The position numbers and the translations under genes are program-made. 64,000 nucleotides of DNA from a virus. The stretch lies in the IMG/VR virus record IMGVR_UViG_3300020731_000015, positions 1 through 64,000 of that record; one strand, 5' to 3'. Each line of letters begins with the position of its first letter. The stretch's first letter is position 1. Below, piece by piece: positions 3,813-61,195 of this stretch. The notes beneath the pieces were generated by a model that saw nothing but the letters and a program-made list of their open reading frames with translations, made no database searches and was not told the origin of the DNA.

Positions 3813-4384
3813 CCGAGCAATACGACTTCCCAGAGCCAACCCCTATGGCAAAGAAAGCCGGGCGACCAGTCTTACTAAACGAAGACAAGATGAAAGCCAT
3901 AACGGATTTATTGGAGAGGGGCAATACCTATACCGCCTCGGCTAAGGCCGTAGGGATTAACCCAGCGACCCTTAGCCAATGGGTGCGCAAAGGCAAAGAA
4001 CTACAGATGTTATCTAGGGAGTTGGACACTACCGAACAACTATTCGTAGAGTTTTCTTTGGCAGTAGAAAAAGCAAGGGCAGTAGCAGAGGTAAGGGCAG
4101 TAGAGAAGATTAGACAAGCGGGCGATTCGTCTTGGCAAGCGGCGGCGTGGTATCTAGAACGAGCAAACCCTCAAGATTGGGGATTGGTGCGTAGGACAGA
4201 AATCACAGGGGCCGAGGGCGGGGCGATACAGATTGATGTGGAGTCGGTCAATCGCAAGTTAGAAGCCTTGATTGCGAATACGGTCATTGATGTAGAGGCC
4301 GTAGAGGCCTCGCTAGAGCCTCTAGAAAGCCCTACAGAGCCAGAGACACAGATAGACCCCCCATCTACCGATTTGGGCGAATAG
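3809..4384 (+). CDS. terS: terminase small subunit (HTH)
   Basis: GRP start, HTH (TASAKAVGINPATLSQW), WQAAAWYLERANPQDWG and EITGAEGGAIQI are typical of TerS; ATG at 3809 coupled to the upstream stop. Confidence 0.75.
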   Translation: MTEQYDFPEPTPMAKKAGRPVLLNEDKMKAITDLLERGNTYTASAKAVGINPATLSQWVRKGKELQMLSRELDTTEQLFVEFSLAVEKARAVAEVRAVEKIRQAGDSSWQAAAWYLERANPQDWGLVRRTEITGAEGGAIQIDVESVNRKLEALIANTVIDVEAVEASLEPLESPTEPETQIDPPSTDLGE

Positions 4385-4922
4385 AGGCCCCGGGTGGGCG
4401 TATAGGGGGGCGTAGGGGCGTGTGGGGTGCTTCGCCGTCAGTCCTCAACAACAATTCCTAGAATACTTGACAGGGGTTTAGTTATCTGCTAGGCGTGTGA
4501 CATACACGATGCCTGTGACACGGCAACGCGCGCTCGTCTTTCGTGGTCGGAGTGCTTAGGTGGCAGAAGACCCACCCCCGCCGATATTGCGGGTGGGGGG
4601 CCTATTTTCCACAGGGGGCATCCCACCCCACAATGGTTGACAAAGAATCCCTAACTACTAAACCCCCATACGCTACAAATTGTGGAGTGTTAAGACTGCA
4701 CTTTGGGGAGTGTGTATAGAGTGTGTATAGAGCGCACACACTCGCTACTTTGGAATCCGTGCACAAGCGCATACAGATAACGCTATCTGTGCACGGTTAG
4801 GTACAACGGCTACTTCTTGTAGTGGTTGTGGAGTTGGATAAGGGTATTTACAACGGCGCAGAGAGCGAGTAGGTAGGTCATACCCCTAGCGTGTCGCAAT
4901 ACCCCCAACGGCGCATACGCCC

Positions 4923-52611: not shown

Positions 52612-53019
52612 ATGACGAACGCATCAGATTTCAGCAGAGGCAATTTGCTTGGCCCAGATGGGGTTTATCGTGAGTTCATCAAGGGTGATTTCTCTGGCCA
52701 CGTCTTTCGTGGCAACCAGCACTCGGTCGGTGGCGTAGGTCACTTCGACCCTTGGCGCGCAACCCTAATGACTATCTGTGCTTCGGGCCACCAGAACACC
52801 ATCGGCGTTCCCCCAACTTGGATTGAGCGTGATGCTCAAGGTAAGCCAACTGGTCAGTTCACGGCGGGAACCCAGAGCCGTATGTGCGCTACTTGTTCCA
52901 AACCTCTACCTAACCGTTGGAAGTTGATAAACGGACAGAAGTTTATTCAGCCCGACAAGCAACCCGTGACGAGCGCAAACCAATGGCTTTACGGTGGAGT
53001 AAAGAACTATGTCAAGTAG
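52612..53019 (+). CDS. tagged small Zn-ribbon protein
   Basis: FIK|GDFSGHVFRGNQH (52681); CASGH..CATC. Confidence 0.65.
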   Translation: MTNASDFSRGNLLGPDGVYREFIKGDFSGHVFRGNQHSVGGVGHFDPWRATLMTICASGHQNTIGVPPTWIERDAQGKPTGQFTAGTQSRMCATCSKPLPNRWKLINGQKFIQPDKQPVTSANQWLYGGVKNYVK

Positions 53020-56000
53020 TTTGGAAAAGCAAGTCTTCCAGCCGAACTTCGTAAAGTTCACCAACACGGAAATCGTTGACCGCAACCCTATTTCTGGCAC
53101 GACTTTCTTTGGAAACCAGAACAACGGCTTCCAACTCGTTAAGTTTGCTGATGGCTCTAACGGAGTTGAGAAGCGACTCAAGCATTGGGTCGGGAACAAG
53201 ACTGGTCGCCTCTATCGTGGCGAACTTCTCGGTGCGCAGGAATACCTAGCGGCTCGTGTGGGCGAAGTAATGAACGCCCCTATCCGTGACTGCCACTTCA
53301 CTAGCAAAGACGCACAGAGTATCGTTATGCCGTTTATTGATGGGCGCTCTGGTGCTGAAATGAACGATAAGGATATCCCCGACACTCCACAAGGAGTAGC
53401 CCTACGACTATTTGACTACCTAGTAGCCAACGCAGACCGACGCCCCAAGAATATTATGTTTGCTGATAACGGAAACATAGTGGGTATTGACCACGCCCTT
53501 TGTAATTTCCGGCCTCGTGAGCCTAAGCCAGAGTTGATTACTATCCTTTGGAACGGCGGAGTCACCCTAAGTAGTTTGGAAATCCTAAAGCCAAAACTGC
53601 TTGCTCTCGGTGGTTTGTTTTCCCAAATGGGTATGACAGAAAAGTTTGGAAACCTAATCGGCAACCTCGACCGATTGATTGCGGCTTTCACCAAAATCCA
53701 AAATATCGCGGTGGCTAAGGCCGCCTTTGACTCACAGACCCCACCACAAGCCGTTCAACAAGCAGCGAAACAGGCTTTGGAGTGGATAGCAGACGGCAAG
53801 GCTGGTAGGAACTTTACCTCGGTAGGTCGTAAAAGGGCTTCAGACCTCGCTCACGGACACCCAGTATCCCTAGAAACCCTAAAGCGTATGAAAGCCTACT
53901 TTGATAGGCACGGCGTTGATAAGCAGACCCCACATTGGAACGAGCCAAGCCCCGGCAAGGTGGCGTGGTATGCGTGGGGTGGAGATGCTGGCTACTCGTG
54001 GGCTAAGAAGATGGTCGCTCGTGCTGAAAAGGCCGCAGAAGCGGTCCGTAAAGATGCCGACACCGATAGGAAAAAAGCGGACGCGAAACTAAAGGAAGCA
54101 GAAGCACTAGCGGCAGAAGCCTTTGATTTTCGCCGTAGGGAACACTTTGAGTCGGCCGCCAACGCTCACGCCAATGCCTCACGCTTATTCTTTGAGGCTT
54201 CCAAACTCTACGGAAATGACGAGAATGGTGATGCCGTAAGCGCACTCGCTAGGGGAAACTCGGAGAAAGACCTAGCCGAATCCGCCCGATTTACAGACCA
54301 GATGGGCGAACAACACAGTCCTGCTGAAATCCACGATGGAACTTGGGTGGATGGGGGTGCTTGGGCTGGCGGAACCGACCCGGTGGAAAAGGGAGATGTC
54401 GTAGGACACGAGTTCCACGGGAATCAATGGACCGGAGATGAATACGACTTCAATAAGGATTCTTACGACCACAATGCTTGGGGTTCGCCACTCAAGTATG
54501 ACTCTTGGACAGGGGCAACGACCGAAGACAAGTCAGAAAAAGTTGGTGATTATGTCTTTAATTCTAGGTTGCCTAGTAGCGAATACATCGCTTATATGAA
54601 GTCGCACTTTTCATACAACAACATACCAACGCCAGACAAACTAACCACTAACTGGAAAGATGAAATGGCGAAAGCACGGAGTAAGTATGTCGTTAGTGAT
54701 GTATGGGCTACGAAAATAAACGACAAATTGCGAAAAGACAAAGCACTTAGCCCCAAGCAACAAACGGAGTTTGAGGCCGTAAAGAAATGGGCCGAGTCAG
54801 AAACGATTATCAAACCGGTATCGCTATACCGAGTGTCTATCTTGCCTGATGCTGTTTTGGACAAACTGCAGCCCGGAACTTCCTACTTGGAAAAAGGATT
54901 CCAATCCACTTCCATATCACCATCAGATATGATTAATTACGGAGTATCCCGAAGATTGGGTGGGGATACCCATACGGCTATTAGCGGCAATAGGGTTTAT
55001 TTTAGGCTCAACGCACCAAAGGGAACGAAAGCCGTTGACGCTTACTCGGAAGAAGTGGTATTGCCACCCAACACGCAAGTTTCAGTCACTAGCCGAGCAA
55101 CCGACAAGATGGGTAATACCTACATCACGGCAGATATCAATAATAGCACGGAAGTCAAAAAGGGCGACTCGCCCGGTCACGAGTTTCACGGCAATCAGTA
55201 CGAGGCAGGTATCGTTTCCAAACTAGATGCTGGCGAGAGCCCCGAAATCGCTTCTGCTGATTTGCCCGGTCTGGTTTCTGGCATCCACGACTTAGGTTCT
55301 CGTGGTCACGGATACGACATTACGAACCTAAAAGTTGATGGAGAAAAGCCTTTCCAAACTGACCACGATGCTGATTTGCTTCGTGAGCATATGCCCCAAA
55401 TACTCCCAAGCCAACGAGCAGAGTTCCTCAAGGATATTCAGAGCGAATACGGAATTGTAAGCAAGGCAGAAGAGGTCAACCCCAAAACCCTAAAGCCCTC
55501 ACAAACAGAGATTGATGGTTGGAAGACGGGTGGCGTTTATAAGGAGTTTGCTGAAAAGGGCATACCCGCCGAGCGCGCTCCACTCGTTTCTAGCGACAAC
55601 TACATTATTGACGGACACCACTATTGGTCGGCGGCAATCGCCCTAAAAGCCGCAAACCCCGACTACAAACTCCCTATTCGCCGTTTATCCTGCGACCTAG
55701 ACACGGCACTAAAGGTTGCTAACCAATGGCACGACAAGGTTGGCAACCCACGCCTATCGCTGGGCGATACCCAAGTTTCCAAATCAGGAGTAGCCGGACA
55801 ATCTGGTGATAAAGAGGGCCACGCCTTTAGAGGCAACCAATGGTGGATGATGGGGCCAGACGGAGTTCCAGTTCCACGCCCTCGAGCACCTAAAACCGAT
55901 ACGGGAGACAAGACACCAGCGGCCCCTAAAGCCCCAAGGGTATCAACCCCACGCGCTCCAAAAGCCACGCCAACTGCTGAAACGCCTAAGCCTATCTACC

Positions 56001-57256
56001 AAGAAGACCTCAAAGTTCCATACGGCAAGGGAGTTATTCCGCCGGGCTGGAAGAAAACTGGCACGACTTCGGTAGTTATCCCGTCTAGAGATTGGAGTAA
56101 GCCGCCGAAGATAGTTAATTGCACAACCTTTTCTTCAGCAAAGGGCAACACCGCTATTATCGGCACAAGAGCGCGTGGGTGGAAGATAGGCGACCGATAC
56201 ACCAATACCGTCTTGATGACGATTGACAGATTTGCTACGGGAAAGCAAGTTGAGTTTGTTCACACTCTAAGACAAGGCGCGAACACCCTTGCTTCTGTCT
56301 CTTTGGGAAATCCAAACTCCCTAATGATTGGCCGCTATGGAATTATTGGTAGAGACTTAAAGGCGGGCATAGAAAAGTATCGCCCCAACTACCAAACAGA
56401 TGATACGACACCAGAGGCAATCAAGGCTCAAGCCGATTGGGATTCCCTAAAGGATACGGCAGTCGCACAGGCAAAGGGTGAAATCAACACCCAAGAGGGT
56501 CGTGATGCTTTGGATAAGGTCGAGGCAACGCTTCAGGCTACTGATAATTCCAATTTGGCTAAGGGCTTTACGATTGACAAGTTGGGCCGAACTTGGAACA
56601 CGGGCGACCTATTTATGTCCTCCCAACGCCGTATTGAGTCAACGATTATCCACGAACTAGGCCACTCCAACTTCTTTAGTGATGGCAAAAAAATAACCGA
56701 TGTAATCCCAGAACTCCAAAAGTCTTTGGGTAGCAAAGTAGACCTTTCTAAAGAAAACGAGAGCGGCAAAAGGGGTTTCGTAAGAAACATCAAGACCCCC
56801 GCCCTCAATTTCGGTGGAAAGACAATAGTTCCTAGAGGTGAAGTTAAAGACTTTCTAGATAAACACGAGCCCGGCATCTACCCTCTCTCGTTGGATACAA
56901 CGAAAGCCCTCAAAGCGATTGGTGGAACCAAATACGGAACGAGCAGTCTCCAAGAGTTAGGTGCTGAATCGTTCGCCCAATTCCAACTAGGGATAACCCA
57001 ATCGCCCATAACCCAAGCCTTTGCTACCTCTCTCGGCTGGCAACAGGCTGGAACTACGGTAGCCAAGTCTGGTAGCGTTGCTGATATGAGTCAATCCCAA
57101 TCCCCCAATGTTTACTACTCGCCAGAGTTCGGTGGGGAAGTCGCACGGGTATTCCTAGAGGATTCCCTTGATGGCCCACGCCTTGTGGTTGGTGATTCGG
57201 TGGAAAACTACGGCCACCCAGACCAGACTGACGACTCGACTGAAGACGAGGAATAA
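53009..57256 (+). CDS. polyvalent polyprotein: HipA/PI3-4-kinase-like, conserved AW..WGG domain, VIP2-like ART, ParB/Srx, zincin metallopeptidase
   Basis: FDYLVANADRRPKNIM..IDH; AWYAWGGDAG; LYR..GFQSTS..EEVVLP; IIDGHHYW; HELGH..ELGAESF; tags at 54389, 55160 and 55781. Confidence 0.82.
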   Translation: MSSSLEKQVFQPNFVKFTNTEIVDRNPISGTTFFGNQNNGFQLVKFADGSNGVEKRLKHWVGNKTGRLYRGELLGAQEYLAARVGEVMNAPIRDCHFTSKDAQSIVMPFIDGRSGAEMNDKDIPDTPQGVALRLFDYLVANADRRPKNIMFADNGNIVGIDHALCNFRPREPKPELITILWNGGVTLSSLEILKPKLLALGGLFSQMGMTEKFGNLIGNLDRLIAAFTKIQNIAVAKAAFDSQTPPQAVQQAAKQALEWIADGKAGRNFTSVGRKRASDLAHGHPVSLETLKRMKAYFDRHGVDKQTPHWNEPSPGKVAWYAWGGDAGYSWAKKMVARAEKAAEAVRKDADTDRKKADAKLKEAEALAAEAFDFRRREHFESAANAHANASRLFFEASKLYGNDENGDAVSALARGNSEKDLAESARFTDQMGEQHSPAEIHDGTWVDGGAWAGGTDPVEKGDVVGHEFHGNQWTGDEYDFNKDSYDHNAWGSPLKYDSWTGATTEDKSEKVGDYVFNSRLPSSEYIAYMKSHFSYNNIPTPDKLTTNWKDEMAKARSKYVVSDVWATKINDKLRKDKALSPKQQTEFEAVKKWAESETIIKPVSLYRVSILPDAVLDKLQPGTSYLEKGFQSTSISPSDMINYGVSRRLGGDTHTAISGNRVYFRLNAPKGTKAVDAYSEEVVLPPNTQVSVTSRATDKMGNTYITADINNSTEVKKGDSPGHEFHGNQYEAGIVSKLDAGESPEIASADLPGLVSGIHDLGSRGHGYDITNLKVDGEKPFQTDHDADLLREHMPQILPSQRAEFLKDIQSEYGIVSKAEEVNPKTLKPSQTEIDGWKTGGVYKEFAEKGIPAERAPLVSSDNYIIDGHHYWSAAIALKAANPDYKLPIRRLSCDLDTALKVANQWHDKVGNPRLSLGDTQVSKSGVAGQSGDKEGHAFRGNQWWMMGPDGVPVPRPRAPKTDTGDKTPAAPKAPRVSTPRAPKATPTAETPKPIYQEDLKVPYGKGVIPPGWKKTGTTSVVIPSRDWSKPPKIVNCTTFSSAKGNTAIIGTRARGWKIGDRYTNTVLMTIDRFATGKQVEFVHTLRQGANTLASVSLGNPNSLMIGRYGIIGRDLKAGIEKYRPNYQTDDTTPEAIKAQADWDSLKDTAVAQAKGEINTQEGRDALDKVEATLQATDNSNLAKGFTIDKLGRTWNTGDLFMSSQRRIESTIIHELGHSNFFSDGKKITDVIPELQKSLGSKVDLSKENESGKRGFVRNIKTPALNFGGKTIVPRGEVKDFLDKHEPGIYPLSLDTTKALKAIGGTKYGTSSLQELGAESFAQFQLGITQSPITQAFATSLGWQQAGTTVAKSGSVADMSQSQSPNVYYSPEFGGEVARVFLEDSLDGPRLVVGDSVENYGHPDQTDDSTEDEE

Positions 57257-57578: not shown

Positions 57579-58172
57579 GTGACAAGCAACCCTGTAGTAA
57601 TGCGCAGTGTTATTCGTAGTATCTGGCAAGACTTATGTGATGGTGTCGAAGAGATGGGCGCGAAAGCGGCCTCGGCGGTGGCTCTAGGGCTAGCGATTAT
57701 CTTCGCCGTGAGCGGGCTACAACCGATAGCCCAAGCAAGCACCCCAACTAGGGCAATCACCCCTATAGTCGTAAACGCTAAAGCGGTGTCTAGCCCCTAT
57801 GCCAACTTCCCCAAACTAATCAACTATGAGATTGGTGATTCCAAGTGGCGAACTTGGACTTGGGATAAGACCGCCTATAGGCCGTCTTTGGTTGACCCCA
57901 CACGAGCCCTACCGCTCAAGGCCCAAGTCACCTTTGCCTGTATCCGATACGCCGAAAGCCGTAATCACCCCAACGATACGAACCAGCAATCGGGTGCAGA
58001 GGGCCTTTACCAATTCCTGCCCTACCTATGGCAATATGGGGCAAAAGCCCTCGGTATCAAGGCCGTTAGTGCCAATAACGCCACCCCCGAACAGCAGAGT
58101 GCCGTAGCCGTTTGGTATTACAAACGAAACGCTGGCTTCTACCCCGAATGGGTGGATGGCTGCACGGGCTAA
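57579..58172 (+). CDS. secreted lytic transglycosylase (Rpf/lysozyme-like)
   Basis: Signal/TM segment; CIRYAES..SGAEGLYQF..W..ATPEQQ. Confidence 0.75.
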   Translation: MTSNPVVMRSVIRSIWQDLCDGVEEMGAKAASAVALGLAIIFAVSGLQPIAQASTPTRAITPIVVNAKAVSSPYANFPKLINYEIGDSKWRTWTWDKTAYRPSLVDPTRALPLKAQVTFACIRYAESRNHPNDTNQQSGAEGLYQFLPYLWQYGAKALGIKAVSANNATPEQQSAVAVWYYKRNAGFYPEWVDGCTG

Positions 58173-58312
58173 GTCGAAAGTCGCTATAGTGGATGCCGAA
58201 AGGCGTTCCTTTCCAAATCATCAGTATCAGCAAAAAGTCCTCACGAAAGGTTCGTGGGGATTTTTTGTTTATTGGCTTGATTTGCCCCACCACATCAGTT
58301 ATCATTAGTCCT

Positions 58313-59071
58313 ATGGCTAACGAAACCAAACAGATGACTGCGGTTTCACTATTTGCGGGCGTGGGCGGTTTCGACTTAGCACTAGAGCGCAACGGAGTGA
58401 ATGTCGTAGCGGCAGTAGAAATTGACAAACACGCACAAGCAGTGTTGGCAAAGCAGTTCCCAAATACAAAACTATTCAACGATGTCACGGAGGTATCGGG
58501 TGAGCAACTTATTTCAGCAGGATTTGACCCAAGAAACGGAATCCTTGTCGGTGGATTCCCCTGCCAAGACCTTTCCGTTGCCGGAAGACGTGCAGGGCTG
58601 GCTGGAAAGAGAAGCGGCCTCTTCTACGAAGTCGCGCGCATCATCGAAGAACTCCAACCGGAGTGGTTCGTCCTCGAAAATGTCCCCGGCCTTTTATCAA
58701 GTCAGCAGGGAGCAGATATGGGAGCAGTTGTCGGAACGCTGGTTGACCTCGGGTACGGCGTCAGTTGGCGGGTGTTGGATGCTCAATACTTCGGAGTTCC
58801 CCAGCGGCGGCGTCGTGTCTTCATCGTTGGCCGACGTTCTGGAGACTGGAGAAGTACCGCAAAAGTATTATTTGAGCGCGAAAGCGTGTGCGGGGATTCT
58901 GACCAGAGCCGAGCGACGGGGGAAGAAACTACCCGAACCGCTTTTACAAGCATTGAAAGCACAAGCGGCGGATTACAAGCCGGAGTAGCAAAGGGGGGAG
59001 TGTCCGTCACAGATGAGAACACGACCAACCCTTTTACAAGTCAGGATTTGCTGAATACTCAACAGGTGTAG
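58313..59071 (+). CDS. C5 cytosine DNA methyltransferase, N-terminal part (motifs I-VIII)
   Basis: SLFAGVGG, GGFPCQDLS, ENVPG, QRRRRVF; no motif IX/X before the stop. Confidence 0.9.
   Translation: MANETKQMTAVSLFAGVGGFDLALERNGVNVVAAVEIDKHAQAVLAKQFPNTKLFNDVTEVSGEQLISAGFDPRNGILVGGFPCQDLSVAGRRAGLAGKRSGLFYEVARIIEELQPEWFVLENVPGLLSSQQGADMGAVVGTLVDLGYGVSWRVLDAQYFGVPQRRRRVFIVGRRSGDWRSTAKVLFERESVCGDSDQSRATGEETTRTAFTSIESTSGGLQAGVAKGGVSVTDENTTNPFTSQDLLNTQQV
58422..58988 (+). CDS. alternative-frame MTase accessory polypeptide (M.EcoHK31I beta-like); start uncertain
   Basis: Entirely overlaps the MTase in another frame; SSLADVLE..VPQKYYLSAKACAGILTRAERRGKKLP..L..AL. Confidence 0.6.
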   Translation: MTNTHKQCWQSSSQIQNYSTMSRRYRVSNLFQQDLTQETESLSVDSPAKTFPLPEDVQGWLEREAASSTKSRASSKNSNRSGSSSKMSPAFYQVSREQIWEQLSERWLTSGTASVGGCWMLNTSEFPSGGVVSSSLADVLETGEVPQKYYLSAKACAGILTRAERRGKKLPEPLLQALKAQAADYKPE

Positions 59072-59361
59072 GCACACTACGCGCCTCATCTTCGCAAGAA
59101 GACCACATTCTTGTTGAGCAAATCGGCTTTTCCGGTAGCAACTTTAACGGTTATGCTGAAACGCCCCAAATGGCTACCCTCGTGGCGACCGATAGCAAGA
59201 GAAGCGACAAGGTAGTTGTAGAGCGCCGAGTCAACTCTATGTATGGTGAAAAGATTGCCCCTACCCTCACGGCAAGTGGCAACGACTACATCGGGCTAGG
59301 CGTTCCTATGGTTTCCGTTGATACGCAAGAGCCAGTATTCGGTGCTTTTGAGGAACTATGA
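59017..59361 (+). CDS. MTase variable-region (TRD-like) segment in the -1 frame
   Basis: FYKSGFAEY..VGTLRAS..IAPTLTAS; frame open from 59017, first ATG at 59170. Confidence 0.5.
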   Translation, partial: EHDQPFYKSGFAEYSTGVGTLRASSSQEDHILVEQIGFSGSNFNGYAETPQMATLVATDSKRSDKVVVERRVNSMYGEKIAPTLTASGNDYIGLGVPMVSVDTQEPVFGAFEEL

Positions 59362-60410
59362 GCGAGAACGACCCAATCGTTATCCCAATCCAAGACGGTC
59401 GGGGTATGAATCAGAAGCAAAACGGATTTGGAGTTGGTGAAGAGGGCGACCCTGCTTACACACTCACAGCCGTTGGCGGTGCTTCGGTAGCCGTTGCCTT
59501 TGATGAATACAACTTCTCGATTAGCGATACTCACCACACACTTCGGGCCGGAACTCCACAATCCACTGGCGTTATCCAGCCTGTCGTATTTGAGCCGGGT
59601 GCTATGAGCCGTATTGAGGGTCACGACCCTGCTGAAATAGCCCCAACCCTACGAGCCCATATGGGAGACAATCAGTTGGCACTCTTTTACGAAGAAGAAC
59701 TACCAGCAACCCCTACGGGGAATCTAACCCCTTGGCCAGAGATGGGTCAGCCAAATATGGTTTATCGCACCGATACCGTGACTAGGACAGTCGATAACAA
59801 TCGCCACCTAATCCTCACGCAAGCGGGGCAAGAAACGCCAACTGCTGAAAACAATTCAGAGACAGGTTGCCTAACCCCTTGGCCCGAAATGCCCCAGCCC
59901 TACAGAGTTTACGGAACAGAAACGGTGACAAGAACTGTGGACAACAACCGACACAACATACTTACGACTATTCCTATTGACATCAGAAACGCAACACGAC
60001 CACCAGACGGAGAACAAGGTATGGGTATTGGCGACAACGGCGACCCCTCAACAACAATCACCACAGGCCGAGTGCCGGGTGTATTCGCAGAGGGCGAGGA
60101 ATCATTCTCGGTCTATGAGAACCAGCGTTCAGAGGTTCGTGAGCAAACGGTATTTAACGCCCTAACGCTCGGTGGCGGAAAGCCCGGTCAGGGATACCCC
60201 ACAATCAGAACTCGCTCGGTAGTTCGCCGCCTCACTCCTATCGAGTGCGAGCGCCTACAGGGATTCCCAGACGACCACACGCTTCTCCGTGCTGATGGCA
60301 AGGAACAAGCCAATGTCCATCGCTACAAGCAGATGGGTAATGCCGTTGCTGTTCCTGTTGTTGAGTGGGTAATCGCCGGAATCGTTGAGGTTCACAACAA
60401 AGATGAGTGA
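59358..60410 (+). CDS. C5 MTase C-terminal module 1 (multiple TRD-like repeats plus motifs IX/X)
   Basis: PAYTLT, APTLRA; RRLTPIECERLQGFP..RYKQMGNAVAVPVV. Confidence 0.8.
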   Translation: MSENDPIVIPIQDGRGMNQKQNGFGVGEEGDPAYTLTAVGGASVAVAFDEYNFSISDTHHTLRAGTPQSTGVIQPVVFEPGAMSRIEGHDPAEIAPTLRAHMGDNQLALFYEEELPATPTGNLTPWPEMGQPNMVYRTDTVTRTVDNNRHLILTQAGQETPTAENNSETGCLTPWPEMPQPYRVYGTETVTRTVDNNRHNILTTIPIDIRNATRPPDGEQGMGIGDNGDPSTTITTGRVPGVFAEGEESFSVYENQRSEVREQTVFNALTLGGGKPGQGYPTIRTRSVVRRLTPIECERLQGFPDDHTLLRADGKEQANVHRYKQMGNAVAVPVVEWVIAGIVEVHNKDE

Positions 60411-60804
60411 GAATAAAGACGAAATGGTGATGCCGACCCTATTGGCTGGTATGGGCGATTCTGCCGTAGGAACGACCCAAGATGCCTACATACTCAAGTA
60501 TCTTGCCTATTCGATTAGGGAAGATGCCAAAGCAAATACCTTTAGCGCCACACCCGTAGATGTTGCTGGCACTATTTCAGCACATCAACCAAGCGTTCAG
60601 AGCCACCACGCTCAAGTGTTCGCTATCCACCCAAAGCCACGCCGTCTTCTACCCGAAGAGTGCGAGCAACTACAAGGCTTCCCTATCGGGTGGACAGACA
60701 ACGGCCAAATTGACCGATACCGATTTAAGCAAATGGGCAACGCAGTCGCCGTGCCAGTCGTTGATTGGGTCATCAAAGGAATCGTAGATGTCCACAACCG
60801 ATAA
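60403..60804 (+). CDS. C5 MTase C-terminal module 2
   Basis: RRLLPEECEQLQGFP..RFKQMGNAVAVPVV. Confidence 0.8.
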   Translation: MSENKDEMVMPTLLAGMGDSAVGTTQDAYILKYLAYSIREDAKANTFSATPVDVAGTISAHQPSVQSHHAQVFAIHPKPRRLLPEECEQLQGFPIGWTDNGQIDRYRFKQMGNAVAVPVVDWVIKGIVDVHNR

Positions 60805-61195
60805 CGACAGTCTTTATGTGACCAATCGTAGGACTGGCGCTGTAGATGAACACAAGGGCGTTTCACCAACCTTGTTGGCGTTTATGGGAACCGGTGGCGG
60901 AAATGTTCCAATTCTCGGCGGCCAACACCCACACGCAGCCGTAGGAGAGGGCGTTTCACCAACTCTTACTGCCGCTTCAGGTGGCGGTGGCGGTCACACG
61001 CCAGTAATCGCTAGTGAACTATCGGTTCGCCGTTTGACACCAGAAGAGTGCGAAGCCCTACAAGGTTTTCCTCGTGGCTGGACAGAAATCAACTCCACCA
61101 CCAACCGATACAAGGAAATGGGAAATGCCGTAGCCGTGCCTGTGGTGAATTGGATTATTGAGGGAATCGTAAAGGTTCACAATGAGCGTAAGTAG
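60788..61195 (+). CDS. C5 MTase C-terminal module 3
   Basis: SPTLLAFMGTGGGNVP; RRLTPEECEALQGFP..RYKEMGNAVAVPVV. Confidence 0.8.
   Translation: MSTTDNDSLYVTNRRTGAVDEHKGVSPTLLAFMGTGGGNVPILGGQHPHAAVGEGVSPTLTAASGGGGGHTPVIASELSVRRLTPEECEALQGFPRGWTEINSTTNRYKEMGNAVAVPVVNWIIEGIVKVHNERK

What the first reader, a model, noticed from the sequence alone, without database searches (positions are those of the whole stretch)
58313..61195. Modular C5 methyltransferase: one catalytic N-half with three alternative TRD plus motif IX/X subunits
Seen: 58313..59071 has motifs I-VIII only. Three overlapping downstream ORFs (59358, 60403, 60788) each end in RRL(T/L)PxECExLQGFP..KxMGNAVAVPVV..GIVxVHN but have different upstream variable regions; module 1 has an internal duplication (LTPWPEM..TRTVDNNRH twice). 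Established: two-chain C5 MTases exist (M.AquI, M.EcoHK31I), and Bacillus phage multispecific MTases carry several TRDs in one chain. Inference: multispecificity achieved by subunit exchange in trans.
Basis: partly seen in the sequence, partly recalled or inferred. Interest (0 to 1): 0.82.

Follow-up and report, generated by a model that had tools for sequence, protein, structure and literature searches.

The report
One methylase core, several swappable tails
An uncultivated phage encodes one catalytic half of a DNA cytosine methyltransferase followed by three separate "closing" halves (four in a 99%-identical strain) that are all under selection and carry different DNA-reading modules, so one core probably takes alternative partners to mark many sequences and escape host restriction, although neither assembly nor methylation has been shown.

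Summary
58313-59071 holds C5-methyltransferase motifs I-VIII only. The ORFs at 59358, 60403 and 60788 each hold a different variable region plus motifs IX-X.

It is not an artefact. The same ordered array is present in three other assemblies. Each module is under purifying selection (dN/dS 0.08-0.19). Among about 155 related viral loci, a separate N-half gene plus one IX-X gene is the norm (135 loci), and the multi-module array is confined to this clade.

New here:
- A 99%-identical contig has a fourth module inserted precisely between modules 1 and 2.
- Single recognition units come and go between relatives, and they recur in other phages' C-subunits and single-chain enzymes.
- The N-half continues into three more recognition units only after a -1 shift at C_CCT_TTT. 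Two relatives have this stretch in frame.
- A conserved 162-codon gene is nested in the +1 frame.

Best reading (0.6): an M.AquI-like split enzyme whose one alpha chain pairs with alternative beta chains, giving broad anti-restriction methylation. This is a new variant of known kinds. Pairing and specificities are untested.

This scan reported the same layout before on other DNA (e1-5889524, e1-5713047, e1-5707989). I found no paper describing it.

The parts
58277..58305 (+). Promoter-like site TTGATT-17-TATCAT ending 7 nt before the N-half ATG. The transcript may be leaderless. Tentative.
   Evidence: a consensus scan, with no more sites than in shuffles. One search shows no Shine-Dalgarno sequence before 58313.
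58313..59071 (+). Catalytic N-half (alpha core, 252 aa), with motifs I-VIII only. The zero frame stops 12 codons after the slippery site.
   Evidence: PF00145 positions 1-167, E 1.8e-57. Aligns to M.HhaI residues 13-172, E 1e-27. Thousands of 240-290-aa homologues.
58500..58988 (+). Nested +1-frame gene (GTG start, GGAGG 6 nt upstream, 162 aa). Its conserved helical tail carries the motifs SLADVLE, KYYLS and RRGKKLP. Function unknown. Probably an accessory chain.
   Evidence: Kept in Mycobacterium phage Dove and in at least 73 of 161 loci. It has 275 database homologues, some free-standing. dS of the N-half falls to 0.25 where it overlaps this ORF, against 0.6 before it and 1.3-2.0 in neighbouring genes. 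Only residues 110-157 fold confidently.
59029..59035 (+). Slippery heptamer C_CCT_TTT in phase with the N-half. Candidate -1 ribosomal frameshift site.
   Evidence: L006 and L007 have one more base here and read through in frame. The same out-of-frame tail is seen in P0005, P0006 and P0007 and in L166.
59045..59124 (+). Predicted stem-loop starting 9 nt after the heptamer. Possible frameshift stimulator.
   Evidence: Minimum free energy -26.1 kcal/mol, z -2.7 against shuffles.
59035..59361 (+). Extension of the N-half in the -1 frame (108 codons), with three TL-type recognition units at 59074, 59176 and 59263. There is no ATG before 59170.
   Evidence: It is in frame with the N-half in L006, L007 and P0008. 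dN/dS is 0.16 overall, and 0.15-0.20 for the 45 codons before the ATG. In 150 of 156 split loci there is no such gap.
59358..60410 (+). Module 1 (beta chain 1, 350 aa). It has five TL-type units, two copies of the LTPWPEM...DNNRH unit, then motifs IX (60225) and X (60336).
   Evidence: PF00145 positions 269-322. dN/dS 0.10. Orthologous triple with support 93. One unit, absent from L006 and L007, recurs in the 512-aa single-chain enzyme of L020.
59724..59966 (+). Internal tandem duplication inside module 1 (two 96-nt copies, 147 nt apart).
   Evidence: family D2 (71% identity). Both copies are kept in L006 and L007.
60390..60395 (+). GTTCAC junction. In the 99%-identical contig L166 a 332-nt fourth module (MX, 114 aa) follows this point.
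   Evidence: The flanking repeat is only 53/72 identical, so this is not an assembly collapse.
60403..60804 (+). Module 2 (beta chain 2, 133 aa). It has one TL unit, the AYSIREDAKANTFSATP unit, and motifs IX (60640) and X (60736).
   Evidence: PF00145 positions 252-322. dN/dS 0.08-0.09. Orthologous triple with support 96. There are 129 metagenome relatives of this recognition region, in split C-subunits and in fused enzymes.
60788..61195 (+). Module 3 (beta chain 3, 135 aa). It has two GVSPTL units (one in L006 and L007), and motifs IX (61028) and X (61121).
   Evidence: PF00145 positions 271-323. Aligns to M.HhaI residues 235-317, including both recognition loops. dN/dS 0.18-0.19. Orthologous triple with support 91.

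Best explanation
This is one operon for a multi-chain, multispecific DNA cytosine-5 methyltransferase.

The alpha chain (58313-59071) carries the AdoMet-binding and catalytic motifs I-VIII. On its own it is an incomplete enzyme. Each downstream gene (modules 1, 2 and 3, plus a fourth in a sibling strain) supplies motifs IX and X, which close the catalytic domain. Each also supplies its own set of short TL-type recognition units, which are homologous to the two DNA-recognition loops of M.HhaI.

Inferred mechanism:
- As in M.AquI, alpha and one beta chain associate non-covalently.
- There is only one alpha, so the beta chains are alternative partners. The infected cell would then hold three or four enzymes with different target sets.
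- Together these would methylate the phage DNA against many restriction systems.
- A -1 ribosomal frameshift at C_CCT_TTT probably makes a second, longer alpha isoform with three recognition units of its own.
- The nested +1 gene probably gives a further accessory chain.
- Recognition units and whole modules are gained, lost and exchanged between phages as cassettes.

Shown here: the anatomy, its conservation, selection on every piece, and the cassette indels.

Inferred: association, exchange, different specificities, frameshifting and the anti-restriction role.
For: 1. Complementary halves. The N-half matches PF00145 positions 1-167 and M.HhaI residues 13-172. The modules match PF00145 positions 252/270-322. 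Module 3 aligns to M.HhaI residues 235-317.

2. Only one N-half lies in the 75-kb record, and one in each of the two relatives' records.

3. The split is the family norm. 135 of about 155 viral loci have an N-half ORF plus one separate IX-X ORF, and 10 are fused. The fused L132 enzyme is 85-88% identical to the N-halves of split loci. Cultured Mycobacterium phage Dove has the two-gene form.

4. The array is conserved in order in L006, L007 and L166. M1, M2 and M3 form orthologous triples with support 93, 96 and 91.

5. dN/dS is 0.10 (M1), 0.08-0.09 (M2) and 0.18-0.19 (M3) against L006/L007. It is 0.14-0.17 for the unsaturated L006-L007 pair.

6. The variable regions differ apart from a 10-residue core. 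Each recurs elsewhere as a working part of sole C-subunits or of single-chain enzymes.

7. Cassette dynamics. A fourth module sits in a 99%-identical genome with a clean junction. There are also unit-sized indels in M1, M2, M3 and the N-half.

8. Overlapping starts and stops, with Shine-Dalgarno-like sites, fit coupled translation.

9. Precedent: M.AquI has I-VIII plus part of the variable region on one chain, and the rest plus IX-X on the other (PMC3404938).
Against: - No direct evidence of association, activity or target sequences.
- The records are about 60% complete, so another N-half elsewhere in the genome cannot be excluded.
- Single-chain multispecific enzymes manage several recognition domains with one IX-X, so why this clade needs several IX-X chains is unexplained.
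- Module 3 folded alone gives a confident model only for the IX and X helices, which says nothing about pairing.
- Module 2 of L006 lacks its first unit, so not every unit is indispensable.
- dS against the window is near saturation. The ratios lean on the closer L006-L007 pair for precision.
Confidence: 0.6

Rival explanations
1. Only one pair works. The N-half (with its extension) and module 1 make the enzyme. Modules 2 and 3 are conserved for another role, for example as competitive regulators of the alpha chain, or as partners of an N-half encoded in the unsequenced part of the genome.
For: - Module 1 abuts the N-half extension, as the single C-subunit does in 150 of 156 split loci.
- The records are only 56-60% complete.
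- Modules 2 and 3 are sister duplicates.
Against: - Modules 2 and 3 keep all motif IX-X residues.
- They are the usual size of sole C-subunits, 105-260 aa.
- Module 2's recognition region is the sole C-subunit in other phages, e.g. L169.
- dN/dS for module 2 is lower than for module 1, while module 3's is somewhat higher.
Confidence: 0.15
2. Cassette store. The extra modules mainly serve as donors for recombination that rewrites the expressed C-subunit, like silent cassettes. They are not simultaneously used subunits.
For: - Conserved 79-nt and 26-nt repeats at the module ends.
- A clean module indel at a GTTCAC junction.
- Unit-level indels between relatives.
Against: - Each module has its own start codon, a ribosome-binding-like site and a coupled overlap.
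- Each is under protein-level purifying selection, which silent cassettes would not need to this degree.
- The repeats are only 73-76% identical, which is poor for frequent homologous exchange.
Confidence: 0.08
3. Larger assembly. Several beta chains bind an alpha oligomer at once, forming one large complex, rather than alternative heterodimers.
For: Nothing direct. The nested +1 gene and the two alpha isoforms hint at more than two chains.
Against: In solved C5 enzymes one catalytic domain has one place for motifs IX-X. This follows from the M.HhaI alignment and from established structural knowledge.
Confidence: 0.05
4. Decay or artefact. This is a frameshifted full-length gene followed by leftover C-terminal fragments, or a misassembled repeat.
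For: The N-half needs a frame change to reach its extension. The modules share repeats.
Against: - Four independent assemblies show the array.
- Every piece, including the out-of-frame extension, is under purifying selection.
- The same frame change is seen in several lineages that are 70-88% identical.
- The repeats are too diverged (74%) for an assembly collapse.
Confidence: 0.02

Closest known systems
M.AquI (two-chain C5 methyltransferase, CYCGRG; as described in PMC3404938)
   Same: The larger chain has motifs I-VIII plus part of the variable region. The smaller chain has the rest of the variable region plus motifs IX-X. The genes are adjacent.
   Different: M.AquI has one beta chain and one specificity. 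Here there are three or four different beta genes behind one alpha, several recognition units per chain, a frameshift-dependent alpha extension and a nested gene.
Multispecific C5 methyltransferases of Bacillus phages (M.SPRI, M.Phi3TI, M.H2I, M.(phi)BssHII; titles in the reference list of PMC8936443, details from my own knowledge)
   Same: They are phage-encoded and not linked to a nuclease. They carry several short target-recognising domains in tandem between motifs VIII and IX. The units carry a TL core and are gained or lost as cassettes.
   Different: Those are single polypeptides with one IX-X. Here the recognition units are spread over an alpha extension and several separate IX-X chains.
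M.EcoHK31I (alpha plus beta, with beta encoded in another frame inside alpha; PMC2836561, PMC3404938)
   Same: A second polypeptide is encoded in an alternative frame inside the catalytic gene.
   Different: The EcoHK31I beta chain is motif IX. The nested ORF here has no motif IX, and the IX-X parts are downstream genes. The split logic is therefore different.
Two-gene methyltransferase of cluster-J-like mycobacteriophages (Dove gp107/gp108, annotated 'DNA methyltransferase' twice)
   Same: It has the same family of N-half (72% DNA identity over 426 nt), a separate 116-aa IX-X gene and the same nested +1 ORF.
   Different: It has a single C-subunit.
Type I restriction-modification loci with several alternative hsdS genes (from my own knowledge)
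   Same: One catalytic component is retargeted by alternative specificity subunits.
   Different: These are unrelated proteins that methylate adenine. Their variants usually arise by site-specific inversion. This is an analogy only.

Membership tests
C5 DNA methyltransferase (PF00145) | Motifs I (FxGxGG), IV (PCQ with the catalytic Cys), VI (ENV) and VIII (QxRxR) on the catalytic part | tested here: met
   58352, 58559, 58676, 58802. E 1.8e-57.
C5 DNA methyltransferase (PF00145) | Motifs IX and X present | tested here: met
   Present three times, each on a separate ORF. Absent from the N-half ORF.
C5 DNA methyltransferase (PF00145) | Transfers methyl to C5 of cytosine in DNA | not testable with these tools
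   Needs expression and 5mC mapping.
M.AquI-type two-chain C5 methyltransferase | Chain 1 has I-VIII plus part of the variable region. Chain 2 has the rest of the variable region plus IX-X. | tested here: met
   Definition from PMC3404938.
M.AquI-type two-chain C5 methyltransferase | Both chains are needed and sufficient for activity | not testable with these tools
   Indirect support only: the two-gene form prevails in 135 loci, and fused close relatives exist.
M.AquI-type two-chain C5 methyltransferase | A single beta chain | tested here: not met
   Three beta genes here and four in L166.
Multispecific phage C5 methyltransferases (SPR type) | Several tandem target-recognising domains between motifs VIII and IX | tested here: met
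   TL-type units: 3 in the extension, 5 in M1, 1 in M2, 2 in M3. There are unit-sized indels between relatives. One unit aligns to both M.HhaI recognition loops.
Multispecific phage C5 methyltransferases (SPR type) | All domains on one polypeptide with one IX-X | tested here: not met
Multispecific phage C5 methyltransferases (SPR type) | Each domain confers its own target sequence | not testable with these tools
   Needs methylome mapping.
M.EcoHK31I-type | A nested alternative-frame ORF supplies motif IX | tested here: not met
   The nested ORF 58500-58988 has no PF00145 match and no PDB sequence match.

The most novel reading that the evidence does not exclude
A combinatorial methyltransferase kit. 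There are two alpha isoforms, set by a -1 ribosomal frameshift whose default state is reversed in sister lineages. There are also three or four exchangeable beta chains and a nested third chain. Together these give roughly a dozen target specificities from 3 kb of DNA. Whole beta genes and single recognition units are traded between phages as cassettes. This would be a modular anti-restriction system with no described counterpart among C5 enzymes.
Probability: 0.35. Interest if true: 0.8.

Novelty: new variant of a known kind. Interest (0 to 1): 0.62.

Why it matters
If one catalytic chain really takes alternative closing chains, this is a new way for a phage to widen its methylation repertoire against restriction. 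It would also be a natural system for studying how C5 enzyme halves recognise each other. That question matters for the split methyltransferases engineered for targeted methylation (PMC3404938, PMC2836561).

The data also show that separate N-half and IX-X genes are the normal state of a very large phage methyltransferase family. Annotation pipelines tend to label such genes as fragments or twice as 'DNA methyltransferase'.

The hypothesis can be tested directly with four small genes and 5mC mapping.

Tried and rejected
I therefore could not fetch the DNA of P0005, P0006 and P0007, the other lineages with the shifted N-half. Their shared out-of-frame tail is argued from protein sequences only.
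- A close-relative scan with the window's own N-half found nothing. Scans with P0006 and P0007 worked.
- A scan for more copies of the extension found only the two known contigs.
- Assembly collapse as the cause of the missing fourth module is rejected, because the repeats are 53/72 identical.
- I considered that the nested +1 protein replaces the M.HhaI 173-234 segment. This has no support. There is no PDB sequence match. Only a 50-residue helical tail folds confidently. The best structural Z was 4.6, with unrelated helical proteins.
- Module 3 folded alone had mean pLDDT 58, with only the IX and X helices confident. I did not search with it.
- GenBank phages: 261 records match module 3, each at a single place, so no array was seen at that sensitivity.
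- Host: one 44% hit in a Bdellovibrionota MAG contig, which is uninformative.
- The Tet_JBP search of the genome found nothing, but the control also failed, so it is uninformative.
- The heptamer CCCTTTT is not rare in the window: 16 copies against 12 expected. Only its place and phase count.
- Literature searches found no description of the layout. PMC457134 and PMC1171429 are not held.
Full report
**What is there.** The window is the first 64 kb of a 75,270-base IMG/VR virus record. On the + strand, 58313-59071 encodes 252 residues that match the C5 methyltransferase family PF00145 over profile positions 1-167 only (E 1.8e-57). The same residues match M.HhaI residues 13-172. Motifs I, IV (PCQ), VI (ENV) and VIII lie at 58352, 58559, 58676 and 58802.

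Three ORFs follow, at 59358-60410, 60403-60804 and 60788-61195. Each matches only profile positions about 252/270-322, that is motifs IX-X. Their ends are a real repeat family, 79 nt in three copies at 73-76% identity. Module 1 contains a 96-nt tandem duplication. The whole record has one N-half and three IX-X matches.

**It is not an artefact or a wreck.** Scans of IMG/VR with two close homologues of the N-half gave 160 loci. A script that looks for motifs IV-VI and IX-X in the three forward frames classified them:
- 135 loci have an N-half ORF (about 205-300 aa) plus one separate IX-X ORF (105-260 aa).
- 10 loci are fused single chains.
- 10 loci are cut off or lack an IX-X match.
- Only two contigs (L006 and L007) carry three IX-X ORFs like the window.

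The split is therefore the normal state of this very large family, and the array is a speciality of this clade. Cultured Mycobacterium phage Dove has the two-gene form, both genes annotated 'DNA methyltransferase'. The fused enzyme of L132 is 85-88% identical to the N-halves of split loci, so fused and split forms interconvert between close relatives.

**Conservation and selection.** In L006 and L007 (about 80% protein identity to the window) the three modules are intact and in the same order. In a tree of 122 IX-X ends, M1, M2 and M3 each form an orthologous triple (support 93, 96 and 91), and M2 and M3 are sisters (85). The tree is a quick one on 58 columns, so it is weak elsewhere.

Nei-Gojobori dN/dS against L006/L007:

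| Piece | dN/dS vs L006/L007 |
|---|---|
| M1 | 0.10 |
| M2 | 0.08-0.09 |
| M3 | 0.18-0.19 |

dS for these comparisons is 1.3-1.8, which is near saturation. For the closer L006-L007 pair (dS 0.2-0.4) the ratios are 0.14-0.17. All three modules are therefore maintained as proteins.

**The modules differ and behave as cassettes.** Outside IX-X, the modules and the N-half extension share only a 10-residue xPTLxA core. Module 3 aligns to M.HhaI residues 235-317, so one TL unit of about 32 residues covers both recognition loops of that enzyme.

Relatives differ by clean unit-sized indels:
- M1 of the window has two units that L006 and L007 lack.
- M3 has two GVSPTL units, against one in the relatives.
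- M2 of L006 lacks its first unit.
- The N-half of L006 and L007 has a unit that the window lacks.

One of the window-only M1 units recurs at about 70% identity inside the 512-aa single-chain enzyme of L020. The recognition region of M2 has 129 relatives in metagenome contigs, found both as sole C-subunits and inside fused enzymes.

Most telling is contig L166 (125 kb). It is 99.5% identical to the window up to the end of M1 and 98.3% identical after it. It carries a fourth module of 114 residues exactly between M1 and M2. The junction lies right after GTTCAC (window 60390-60395). The flanking repeat is only 53/72 identical, so this is a true indel and not an assembly collapse. The recognition region of this fourth module recurs at 66% identity in two other phages' C-subunits.

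**Two further layers.**

*The extension and the frameshift.* The 287 nt between the N-half stop and M1 are coding in the -1 frame. They hold 108 codons with three more TL units and no ATG before 59170. In L006, L007 and P0008 this stretch is in frame with the N-half. The window and L166 have one base fewer at C_CCT_TTT (59029-59035). The proteins P0005, P0006 and P0007 end in the same out-of-frame tail.

The extension is under purifying selection, dN/dS 0.16. The value is 0.15-0.20 for the 45 codons that lie before any ATG. A stem-loop of -26 kcal/mol (z -2.7) starts 9 nt downstream of the heptamer. In 150 of 156 split loci no such gap exists.

I read this as a probable programmed -1 frameshift giving a short and a long alpha isoform. 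In L006 and L007 the same heptamer is kept, and a slip there would end the protein at PFF followed by a stop. Both lineages could therefore make both isoforms, with opposite defaults. This part is inference.

*The nested gene.* A 162-codon ORF in the +1 frame (58500-58988, GTG start with GGAGG upstream) lies inside the N-half gene. The evidence that it is a real gene:
- It is conserved in phage Dove and in at least 73 of 161 loci.
- It has free-standing relatives.
- It depresses synonymous divergence of the N-half to 0.25 where the two overlap.

Only its last 50 residues fold confidently, as three helices, and they match nothing solved. It does not carry motif IX, so it is not an M.EcoHK31I-type beta chain.

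**Mechanism.** The best reading is an M.AquI-like heterodimeric enzyme (definition in PMC3404938) in which one alpha chain can be closed by any of three or four beta chains. Each beta chain brings its own recognition units. Overlapping stops and starts suggest coupled translation. Association, exchange, distinct specificities and the anti-restriction role are inferred, not shown.

Three points remain open. The records are about 60% complete, so a second N-half cannot be excluded. Why several IX-X chains are needed is unexplained, given that single-chain multispecific enzymes cope with one. Module 3 folded alone gave a confident model only for the IX and X helices.

**Novelty.** Two-chain C5 enzymes and single-chain multispecific phage enzymes are known. 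I found no paper describing one catalytic chain with several alternative IX-X chains. Among 261 GenBank phage records that match module 3, none has more than one match.

Within this scan the same layout was already reported. One report is on a relative of this genome (e1-5889524). Two are on giant phages (e1-5713047, e1-5707989). The nested gene was reported on another phage (e1-6073041).

I file this as a new variant of a known kind. What this report adds is the four-module sibling strain, the unit-level cassette exchange with single-chain enzymes, and the selection evidence for the frameshift-dependent extension.

Noticed in passing
window 58500-58988: Conserved +1-frame gene nested in the N-half gene. 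It has a strong Shine-Dalgarno sequence and a GTG start. Synonymous divergence of the host gene is halved where the two overlap. Some database proteins fuse this tail directly behind motifs IV-VI (P0169, P0193, P0226).
   Followed up: partly
window 59029-59124: In-phase C_CCT_TTT heptamer plus a downstream stem-loop. The in-frame or out-of-frame state differs even between 91%-identical relatives (P0006 versus L006).
   Followed up: partly
window 58277-58313: A promoter-like -10 element ends 7 nt before the N-half ATG, and there is no Shine-Dalgarno sequence. The operon may start with a leaderless mRNA.
   Followed up: no
L166 4830-5174: The fourth module in the 99%-identical 125-kb contig has Ser instead of Cys in motif IX (the sequence reads LESERLQGFP) and a KTLDTA-type unit. 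Its relatives are in L203 and L198.
   Followed up: partly
L001 3812-4930 (Mycobacterium phage Dove): A cultured phage carries the two-gene split methyltransferase and the nested +1 ORF (3984-4463), which is not annotated. An HNH endonuclease gene follows directly.
   Followed up: partly
window 53009-57256 and 57579-58172: Upstream are a 1415-aa multidomain protein with repeated HEFHGNQ tags and a 197-aa protein with a weak transglycosylase-like match (E 2.6e-4).
   Followed up: no
window 60855-60870 and 60948-60963: An exact 16-nt repeat marks the recent duplication of the GVSPTL unit in module 3. L006 and L007 have a single unit.
   Followed up: yes
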